This document shows, piece by piece, positions 22,255 through 24,669 of a stretch of DNA of 64,000 bases. The notes below the pieces were generated by a model that saw only the letters and a program-made list of their open reading frames with translations, searched no databases and had not been told where the DNA came from. Both the position numbers and the translations under genes were made by a program. Numbering within the stretch: the stretch's first letter is position 1; each line of letters begins with the position of its first letter. The stretch lies in assembly GCA_951406725.2 (NCBI GenBank), contig OX597819.1:21018001-21082000 (forward strand), given 5' to 3'. This DNA is from Octopus vulgaris (taxonomy: Eukaryota).

Positions 22255-23340
22255 GTCACGCCTGCTCTTCTCGTGTAAGATAAAGGATCTTTCGCATCGC
22301 AGATAGAAGAGACGGGCTATAAGTACTTAGGGATATTGAAAATGGATAATTTAATGCAGAAAGAAATGACAGAAACATTTCAGGTGGAGTACTTGCGCAG
22401 ACGGAGATTGATACGTAATTCGAAATTAAACGGACGGAAGAATAATGAACTATCAACACCTGGGCGGTTTCAATCCTTATATATGGAGCAGGAGTAATCG
22501 CATGGACAGTAGACAAACTGAGCAGCTTAGACAGAAAGACAGAAGTTGCTGATTCGATATGGGATACGTAAATGTAAAACAAAGAAAAAAGACGACAGTG
22601 GATGACTACAAGTGATTTGAATCCGGAAAGGGAGTCTCTAATCTGAATCGCCCAATTGCAAGTACTAGGAATGAAATACGTGAAATGCAGAACACACAAC
22701 ACAGGAGAGAGTGATAAGTACAGAATCTGTGGACAGAATGGTGAAACCGTATGTCATTTTACCAGCTAGTGTACGCCACTAGCCCAGAAAGAAAATAAGA
22801 GACCTCATGACAATATAGCAAGGATTGGACTTTGCAACAAGTTTTGACTTGACAGAGCAAAAGAGTGGTACGAACATAAACCCGAAGGCATCATCGAAAA
22901 TGATAATGCAAAGATCCAATGGGATTTTAGGATTCAATGCGACCATGATATTGAAAATAGGAAGCCAGACATAGTGTTTATTGAGAAAGAAAGCAAACGA
23001 TGCTGGATCATAGATATAGCATGCTCAGCTGACAACAGGGTATGTGATAAGGAGGAAAGAAATGTTAACTTGCGAGGTTAAGCAATTTTGGTCAGCGAAA
23101 AGATGGTAGTATTACCATTAATTTTCGGAGCCCCGCGAAAATTGGGGGAACATCTTGAGAATTACATGGAACAAATAAGGGTTGCAATAAAGGTGTAGCA
23201 CTTGCAGAAAATAGCACTGCTTGGAACCGCTGGAATACTCCGGATGGTGCTCGAAAAATAAGGATTGTTAACCTTAGTTCATTGGTAGTGAATAGCTGAC
23301 ACCATAGTACAACTCCTGCATTAGGAGCTGTGAGAGTACA
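22255..23340 (+). mobile_element. R4/Dong-like LINE 3' fragment
   Basis: GYKYLGILK, INTWAVSILIYGAG, RICGQNGETVCHFTS, RKPDIVFIEK; homologous to 10160-11070. Confidence 0.85.
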
Positions 23341-23547
23341 GTAAACAACAACAATGATGATAATAATAATAATAACAACAGCAACAACAATAATAGTGCC
23401 AAGGAGTTCTAGAGCGGATTATGTGGAAGCGCTGAGCATAGAAGGGAGGTAATATGGAGAGGAACTCTGTTAATTTCCTCCTAGTAATTCTGTATTGAAA
23501 GTAATATTGTCTTAAGCACGGTTGATGTGAAATAACAAGTCGGTAAA

Positions 23548-23800
23548 GTGCATTATTTACATTCAACGGATATTTGTCCTCAGGTTGTTTGTTGTTAACA
23601 CAATGTGTCGCGTGATATACCCTCCAGCATTCATCAGGTGTCTTGGGGAAATTTCGAACCTGGGTTAAAAATTTCCCAAGAAACCTGATGAAGGTTGCAG
23701 GGTATATCAGCAGAAACGTTGTTAACAAAAAATATGAGGACAAATATCCTTTGAATGTAAATAATGCACATAATTCCTCATCTCTTAAATATAGAACTGT
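23548..23800. mobile_element. 253-bp palindromic double-HHR element with 11-bp TSD
   Basis: Inverted arms span 23548-23769, followed by a 31-bp tail; aagtcggtaaa is duplicated at 23537-23547 and 23801-23811. Confidence 0.9.
23682..23723 (+). ncRNA. Hammerhead motif (canonical core)
   Basis: aac CTGATGA aggttg-cagggtatat-cagca GAAA cg TT gtt; mirror copy on the minus strand at 23598-23641 has GAAA decayed to GACA. Confidence 0.75.
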
Positions 23801-24669
23801 AAGTCGGTAAATTGCCTAACTGGAAAGCCCCCGGACCAGATGAGATTCATGGCTTCTGGCTGAAGAGATGCCACGCAGAGCATGAAAGACTAGCAGTCCA
23901 ATTGAACGAGTGTGTCCAGAAAGTTATAGCCCCCTCGGTGATGGTAACTGGGAGGACAACACTTTTAATGCAAGATAGAAGAAAGGAGAATAATATGGGA
24001 AACATCCGTCCCATAGCATGCCTAAACTTAATCTGGAAGATACTGGAATATGTGTGGCAAAGTCATACACTTTCCTGGCGCAAGAAGAAATTCTACCCAG
24101 GGAACAAAAAGGATGTAGGAGGAGTTCTCAAGGTGCCAAAGATCACTTGTTCATCGATAAGACAGTTTTGAGGCATTGTGAAAAAACATCATACAAATAT
24201 GTATAGGGCTTGGATTGACTTAAAGAAGGCATTTGATATGATGCCTCTTTCTTGGATCGTTGAATGCCTGCAGATATGGCGTTGCTGACAACATTACGAA
24301 CTTTATGCAGCATAGTATGAAAGAGCGGAGAACCAAATTGTACTCAAGTAATGTATTCCTTGGAGAAGTTAATATTAAAAGGGGAATCTTCCAAGGTGAT
24401 TCCTTTTCTCCGGTACTTTTTGTAATTGCATTAATACCTATAACAATGATACTTAGGAAAGTTGAGGTGAGTTACGGATATGGTAAGATAGGCCTATCAT
24501 TCAACTGTCTTCTGTTATTGGATGACATAAAATTGTTTGGAAAATCTGAAAAACAGATAGATTCCTTAACCAAAACAGTCCAGAAGTGTGGTAGTGAAAT
24601 TGGCATGGAATGCGTGACTACCAAGTTCTCAGTACTTAATATGTAAAGAAGGAAGAAAGTAGAGACTTA

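What the first reader, a model, noticed from the sequence alone, without database searches (positions are those of the whole stretch)
23537..23811. Double-hammerhead palindrome defined as a discrete insertion by an 11-bp TSD inside a LINE RT
Seen: aagtcggtaaa flanks both ends of the 253-bp element. Removing the element and one TSD copy rejoins the LINE frame as ...QVGK-LPNWKAPGPD. This gives exact boundaries (222-bp palindrome plus 31-bp tail) and shows one event created the whole structure. It also shows this family inserted outside (TA)n, unlike most others here.
Basis: seen in the sequence. Interest (0 to 1): 0.75.

Follow-up and report, generated by a model that had tools for sequence, protein, structure and literature searches.

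The report
Mirror-image Penelope stub inside a LINE
This 253-base mirror-image insert is a real but ordinary stub of a very common Penelope-type jumping gene, likely made by copying the element's RNA onto both cut ends of the target DNA, and the more unusual feature lies in its parent, whose RNA appears to start at a tRNA-like promoter.

Summary
Observation confirmed. The 11-bp repeat, 222-bp palindrome (81.6% arm identity) and 31-bp tail are present, and 0 of 29 other LINE copies carry the insert.

It is a 5'-truncated, head-to-head insertion of an endonuclease-bearing Penelope-like element (PLE). The tail has 3,680 exact genomic matches, and longer copies lead into an RT plus GIY-YIG-type ORF. 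Inverted pLTR, one-sided tail of about 31 bp and short TSD are published PLE features. The scan noted the same stubs in other genomes.

Corrections: the TSD is 11-15 bp, not exactly 11. The rejoined LINE frame is decayed. Both hammerheads are degenerate, lie on opposite strands and cannot form the dimeric ribozyme in cis. Insertion outside (TA)n is normal for the family (67 of 70).

Junctions differ between copies, so the palindrome is built anew each time, likely by double target-primed reverse transcription from two internal start sites.

New lead: the parent's pLTR holds a tRNA-Arg-like segment with A and B boxes, and 22 of 31 arms reaching it stop within 14 nt upstream, suggesting a polymerase III promoter.

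The parts
23537..23547 (+). Left target-site duplication (may extend to 23551)
23548..23666 (-). Inverted, 5'-truncated pLTR arm; lacks the tail; outer end in the 9-nt repeat just before the tail
   Evidence: 85.7% to natural copy L137
23597..23642 (-). Decayed minimal type I hammerhead (GAAA core reads GACA)
23663..23769 (+). Direct, 5'-truncated pLTR arm (codes for the first ORF residues in full-length copies); junction with the inverted arm near 23663-23668
23680..23725 (+). Decayed minimal type I hammerhead (stem I 3/5, stem II 3/4, G.A at 10.1-11.1)
23770..23800 (+). One-sided PLE tail, 31 nt (34-35 if the TSD is 14-15); continues in frame into the ORF in full-length copies
23801..23811 (+). 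Right target-site duplication (may extend to 23815)
23396..23536 (+). Host LINE, part upstream of the insertion (5'-truncated copy behind an (AAT/AAC)n run; decayed)
23812..24662 (+). Host LINE RT region, decayed, 82-85% identical to other copies
   Evidence: (PF00078, E 2.6e-8)

Best explanation
The insert is a dead, 5'-truncated head-to-head insertion of an abundant endonuclease-bearing Penelope-like element, likely made in one event by target-primed reverse transcription from both nicked strands. Shown: the family identity, a fixed 3' end at the tail, an inverted arm that starts 24-46 nt earlier, TSDs of about 11-14 bp, junctions that differ from copy to copy, and arms that mostly share subfamily markers. 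Inferred steps: (1) the GIY-YIG-type domain nicks both strands about 11-15 bp apart in AT-rich DNA; (2) one 3'-OH primes cDNA at the tail end and the other at a second internal site about 31-43 nt upstream, which leaves the tail on one side only; (3) both cDNAs stop early and their ends are joined, sometimes through 2-5 nt of microhomology; (4) repair fills in and duplicates the target. The two hammerheads are passengers of the pLTR and have decayed.
For: Family: 3,945 first-look candidates for the 253-mer, 40 scored; 3,680 exact matches to the 30-nt tail and 0 for the reversed control. Parent: longer copies run upstream into an ORF with RT (PF00078, E 1.4e-10) and a C-terminal region 54% identical to 847-aa P0019 and similar to GIY-YIG-bearing P0095 and P0106. 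In 5 of 30 loci fetched with an N-terminal probe, arm and tail read on into the ORF. Ends: 69 of 70 position-ordered tail copies stop within 0-6 nt of the tail end; 46 of 70 have an inverted arm within 1.5 kb; 41 of 45 inverted arms end 24-46 nt short of the tail end (read-through copy L043 left out). TSD score >=9 in 31 of 45 against 5 of 300 mismatched flank pairs, lengths mostly 11-14. Junction positions vary across 34 short copies. Arms agree at two subfamily markers in 47 of 52 (p 1e-8) and 60 of 64 (p 2e-6); the 9 of 116 disagreements exceed the 1.3% background, which suggests two template copies in some events. In vitro, the anole PLE protein cleaves and extends both strands and starts RT at two internal sites that bound the tail (PMC11167929).
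Against: Junction microhomology of 3 nt or more (12 of 34, null 5%) comes only from the 25 similarity-selected copies; 0 of 9 unselected short copies show overlap, and 14 of 34 have extra bases. Marker disagreement may reflect mutable sites or alignment error (L015), and 5 of the 9 cases are in the selected set. Arkhipova et al. prefer self-priming on an antisense template for the same geometry (PMC3846280). 24 of 70 copies show no inverted arm within 1.5 kb. Pfam GIY-YIG does not hit the decayed EN directly.
Confidence: 0.72

Rival explanations
1. Same PLE origin, but the mirror half is made by fold-back or self-priming: a first cDNA or an antisense RNA folds on a short internal hairpin and is copied back, and the endonuclease then trims one end to leave the tail.
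For: Proposed in PMC3846280; PMC8557442 ascribes the tail to EN resolution. Arms are more alike within than between insertions (9.5% against 11.0%, 0 of 2000 permutations), and 9 of 70 pairs share rare alleles. Short hairpins lie near frequent junctions.
Against: Most junctions are asymmetric, with each arm truncated at a different point. Arms of one insertion can differ in 9-nt repeat number and in subfamily markers. The tail ends match two RT start sites in vitro.
Confidence: 0.2
2. The palindrome is a mobile unit of its own (a MITE-like or retrozyme-like double-hammerhead element) that transposes whole.
For: Many copies of about 250 nt with TSDs; strong hairpin.
Against: Junctions and lengths differ between copies (146 to 1024 nt). 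The ends are asymmetric. The hammerheads are on opposite strands and decayed here. The sequence is the 3' end of an RT-encoding element.
Confidence: 0.04
3. Two separate insertions of the same pLTR end at one site, or a later local inversion-duplication.
For: The arms differ at 17 of 110 aligned positions in this copy.
Against: A single TSD pair flanks both arms. 46 of 70 family copies show the same geometry. Arm divergence from the family majority (8-12%) is like that of the host LINE (8.8%), which fits decay with age.
Confidence: 0.04

Closest known systems
EN+ Penelope-like element insertions with inverted pLTR, tail and TSD (Pen2a_Av of Adineta vaga, PMC3846280; scheme in PMC8557442 Fig. 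2)
   Same: Head-to-head inverted 5'-truncated pLTR, 31-bp one-sided tail, short TSD, pLTR and tail holding the first ORF codons, insertion into a non-LTR element also reported.
   Different: Here the stub has no ORF body; TSDs are longer (mostly 11-14 against 8-10 bp); thousands of copies; the parent pLTR holds a tRNA-like segment and an (AAT)n run.
PAc (Poseidon of Anolis carolinensis, PMC11167929)
   Same: RT plus C-terminal GIY-YIG layout, hammerhead overlapping the ORF start, tail inside the ORF 5' region, AT-rich targets. An 836-aa Anolis protein (P0065) aligns along the parent ORF (E 6e-62 in a small local search).
   Different: That P0065 is PAc was not confirmed (the paper's GenBank supplement could not be read). 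No tRNA-like promoter is mentioned in the parts read.
Minimal hammerheads of metazoan PLEs (PMC4209133)
   Same: Family majority has a 5-bp helix I, an extra base before helix II, G10.1-C11.1 and a palindromic helix III region. The paper reports dual motifs 100-700 bp apart on opposite strands as probable truncated PLEs.
   Different: Both motifs in this copy are broken; no pile-up of arm ends at the predicted cut site (6 of 113 arms within 8 nt).
L1 twin priming (recalled, not read)
   Same: Both target strands prime; an inverted junction; one TSD pair.
   Different: In L1 the inverted part is a different stretch of the RNA; here both arms copy the same stretch.
Helenus/Cassandra TRIMs and tRNA-derived SINEs (PMC10886601)
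   Same: A small-RNA-derived polymerase III promoter captured inside a terminal repeat (applies to the parent pLTR, not to the 253-bp stub).
   Different: Those are non-autonomous; here the segment sits in an RT-encoding PLE.

Membership tests
EN+ Penelope-like element | Single ORF with PLE-type RT and C-terminal GIY-YIG endonuclease (in the parent) | tested here: met
   RT PF00078 E 1.4e-10; 278 homologues, best 73% identical, several with PF01541; EN region aligns to P0019, P0065, P0095, P0106; no direct Pfam GIY-YIG hit on decayed copies
EN+ Penelope-like element | Partial tandem: pLTR reads on into the ORF | tested here: met
   L131, L134, L137, L140, L145 (5 of 30 loci)
EN+ Penelope-like element | Inverted 5'-truncated copy at the 5' end | tested here: met
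   46 of 70 position-ordered copies and the window copy
EN+ Penelope-like element | 30-40 bp tail on one side only | tested here: met
EN+ Penelope-like element | Minimal hammerhead in the pLTR | tested here: met
   Family majority passes the descriptor; 15 of 53 direct arms pass strictly; both window arms fail. No Rfam hammerhead hit
EN+ Penelope-like element | Short target-site duplication | tested here: met
   31 of 45 against 5 of 300 null
Penelope/Poseidon clade | RT phylogeny with named references | not tested
   Only similarity to an Anolis 836-aa protein; no tree built
Non-LTR retrozyme | Direct tandem repeats each with an intact type I hammerhead, no protein | tested here: not met
   Inverted pair with broken motifs, derived from a coding element (definition)
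MITE / TIR element | Symmetric terminal inverted repeats, uniform unit, fixed TSD length | tested here: not met
   One-sided tail, variable length, junction and TSD
tRNA-derived polymerase III head (parent pLTR) | A box and B box at 30-35 nt spacing near the RNA 5' end | tested here: met
   A box exact, 33-nt spacer, B box 10 of 11 against the consensus given in PMC8969392; co-linear with genomic tRNA-Arg genes, z 7.1-7.4
tRNA-derived polymerase III head (parent pLTR) | Transcription by polymerase III | not testable with these tools
   Indirect only: pile-up of 5' ends; few T4 runs
tRNA gene | Cloverleaf / Rfam RF00005 match | tested here: not met
   ARAGORN 0 of 5; no Rfam tRNA hit
R4/Dong LINE (host) | RT followed by restriction-like endonuclease; (AAT)n tail; clade by phylogeny | tested here: inconclusive
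   RT PF00078; RKPDIV motif and (AAT)n tail in the upstream copy (motif meaning recalled); no tree

The most novel reading that the evidence does not exclude
The parent is an autonomous Penelope-like element that has captured a tRNA-Arg-derived polymerase III promoter in its pLTR. Its RNA starts 7-14 nt before the A box, its 2.6-kb coding strand avoids T4 terminators, and most of its thousands of insertions are SINE-sized stubs built by double target-primed reverse transcription from two internal start sites, sometimes on two different RNA copies.
Probability: 0.4. Interest if true: 0.62.

Novelty: new member of a known kind. Interest (0 to 1): 0.33.

Why it matters
The insert itself is a known PLE footprint and harmless-looking. 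Its value is as one of thousands of natural products that test how PLEs build inverted arms and tails, which PMC8557442 and PMC11167929 call unresolved. The genomic geometry fits the two-start-site, both-strand chemistry seen in vitro. If the tRNA-like segment drives transcription, this would be an RT-encoding retroelement run from a SINE-type promoter, and many short copies could be mis-filed as SINEs.

Tried and rejected
Rfam at gathering threshold: 0 hits in the window. The E-value scan of the insert gave only sub-threshold matches, mostly miRNA hairpins, rejected as chance.

One search was aimed at the wrong stretch (a flank of L060), and its 30 loci were not used.

Polymorphism test: 24 runs were listed, with no RNA holder listed. 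Four runs were laid. No listed contig spans the locus and no listed joint skips the insert (41 joints not shown), so this says nothing about an empty allele.

Hammerhead cleavage as the source of arm ends: no pile-up at the cut site. A free-standing SINE reading of the tRNA-like segment: 24 of 30 exact matches are followed by the PLE arm. All 30 best genome hits to a relative's EN are the same family, so no sister family was available as a control. A scan look-up by sequence found nothing, and one by polymerase III words found nothing.

Literature searches for a tRNA or polymerase III promoter in PLEs, or for PLE-linked octopus SINEs, returned nothing on point. The library lacks most subscription journals and Repbase reports, and the 1994 octopus SINE paper was seen only as a reference title.

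Full report
1. Observation. The 11-mer AAGTCGGTAAA flanks a 253-nt insert at 23537-47 and 23801-11 and occurs nowhere else in the window. The insert is a 222-nt palindrome with 81.6% arm identity plus a 31-nt tail. It folds at -126 kcal/mol, z = -15. A search of the window's genome (G000; 2.8 Gb, 227 contigs; probably an octopus, my inference from size and repeat content, not confirmed) with the right flank gave 40 scored matches, of which 30 were fetched, one being the window itself. In the 29 others the site is empty, and 0 of 29 contain the element. Both TSD copies share a C where relatives mostly have G (commonest site forms), as expected if an already mutated target was duplicated.

2. 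Qualifications. 27 of 29 relatives have G after the 11-mer, so GTGC at 23548-51 fits both the target and the element end. The TSD is 11-15 bp and the tail 31-35 nt. The host LINE is decayed: TAA at 23533-35, frameshifts downstream, and 53 of 599 positions off the majority of its relatives. The hammerheads are relics. The + arm has 3 of 5 stem I pairs and a G.A at 10.1-11.1; the - arm has lost the GAAA core. Because they lie on opposite strands, one transcript carries only one of them, paired to its own antisense.

3. What it is. The 253-mer has 3,945 first-look candidates (40 scored). The 30-nt tail has 3,680 exact matches and its reversed control has 0. Longer copies run upstream through an (AAT)n run and a tRNA-like segment into a coding region. 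That region has RT (PF00078, E 1.4e-10) and a C-terminal domain that aligns with an 847-aa relative (54%), an 836-aa Anolis protein and two proteins that pass Pfam GIY-YIG. Pfam does not score the decayed domain itself. In 5 of 30 loci fetched with an N-terminal probe, arm and tail read on into the ORF, in one open frame in the best-preserved copies, and relative P0019 keeps the same N-terminal peptide. This is the partial tandem (pLTR) layout of EN+ PLEs. Passages of PMC3846280 describe an inverted pLTR, a 31-bp tail and 8-10-bp TSDs. Passages of PMC8557442 give the same scheme. Parts 1-2 of 4 of PMC4209133 report dual minimal hammerheads on opposite strands 100-700 bp apart as probable truncated PLEs.

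4. Insertion geometry. I took the first 70 of the 100 listed tail matches on contig C1, in order of position. 69 stop within 0-6 nt of the tail end and one reads on into the ORF; 46 have an inverted arm within 1.5 kb. In 41 of 45 (L043 left out) the inverted arm ends 24-46 nt short of the tail end, inside a 9-nt repeat. TSD-like repeats score 9 or more in 31 of 45 against 5 of 300 mismatched pairs, mostly 11-14 nt. Only 3 of 70 have a microsatellite directly after the tail, so this site is typical. The four other hammerhead-like motifs near (TA)n in the window share no sequence with this family or each other. Contigs from four runs of four coded organisms show loose ends at 23799-23802, the same 3' end. 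In 34 short two-arm copies the junction differs from copy to copy, so the palindrome is made at insertion and is not itself the mobile unit.

5. Mechanism. Parts 1-2 of 4 of PMC11167929 show that the anole PLE protein cleaves and extends both strands and starts RT at two internal sites that bound the tail. Double priming from staggered nicks explains the TSD, the head-to-head arms and the one-sided tail (inferred). Arms of one insertion agree at two subfamily markers in 47 of 52 and 60 of 64 pairs, so they usually come from one source. The 9 of 116 disagreements exceed the 1.3% background, a weak sign that two template copies are sometimes used. Against this model: microhomology of 3 nt or more (12 of 34, null 5%) is confined to the 25 similarity-selected copies, and 0 of 9 unselected ones show it. 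Fold-back or antisense self-priming (PMC3846280) is not excluded. I put identity at about 0.95 and double priming at about 0.7.

6. A lead outside the stub. Between the ORF stop and the next start the parent has an exact A box, a 33-nt spacer and a B box matching 10 of 11 positions of the consensus quoted in PMC8969392 (passages). The segment aligns co-linearly with genomic tRNA-Arg genes (z 7.1-7.4, the top three among the distinct tRNAs from 30 loci), although ARAGORN and Rfam do not call it a tRNA. Of arms that reach the A box, 16 of 22 direct and 6 of 9 inverted stop within 14 nt upstream, against about 5-6% expected from the background truncation rate. Two full-length copies begin there (L137, L145). 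The 2.6-kb majority coding strand has no T4 run (4.4 expected, P 0.007). Natural in-frame stretches have 21 against 85 under synonymous resampling, but these are not independent and G4 runs are also low. A small natural hairpin at -14 to -3 could equally stall RT, and how an uncapped RNA would be translated is open. Searches found no report of this; the library omits Repbase and most subscription papers, and the 1994 octopus SINE paper was seen as a title only. The introduction and passages of PMC10886601 give the nearest precedent, in non-autonomous LTR elements.

7. Other reading. Part 1 of 5 of bioRxiv 10.64898/2026.07.22.740005 (retrozyme definition), and passages of PMC6962438 and PMC13282606 (Penelope and Dong-R4 families listed for Octopus vulgaris). 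The GenBank supplement of PMC11167929 could not be read, so P0065 is not confirmed as PAc. Earlier scan notes describe the same palindrome-tail-TSD stubs in other genomes. They are unchecked AI notes; one prompted the test of arm 5' ends, whose RNA-start part held here and whose ribozyme-cut part did not.

8. Verdict. Real, correctly delimited to within 4 bp, and a new member of a known kind. Interest 0.33, raised slightly by the polymerase III lead in the parent.

Noticed in passing
L137, L145, L226-L255 (parent pLTR; not in the window): tRNA-Arg-like segment with A and B boxes between the ORF stop and the hammerhead; arm 5' ends pile up 0-14 nt before the A box; the coding strand is poor in T4 runs.
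   Followed up: partly
window 2553 (+), 19555 (-), 39461 (+), 52790 (+): Four other hammerhead-like motifs in short elements near (TA)n runs; three contain inverted repeats; no sequence shared with this family or each other.
   Followed up: partly
window 23473-23493: Small inversion in the host LINE's left flank relative to other copies (by eye).
   Followed up: no
window 22318-23395: 3' end of another LINE copy (RKPDIV motif, (AAT/AAC)n tail) directly upstream of the host copy; L170 shows the same tandem arrangement.
   Followed up: partly
PLE arm, window 23750-23769: A 9-nt repeat that varies in number in frame, also between the two arms of one insertion; the second RT start appears to lie in it.
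   Followed up: partly
L124, L125 (G000:C31): PLE fragments inside multi-kilobase duplicated blocks, 92-98% identical.
   Followed up: no
L145 (oriented 1130-1240): The tail-ORF junction is repeated three to four times in tandem, as if by repeated re-priming.
   Followed up: no
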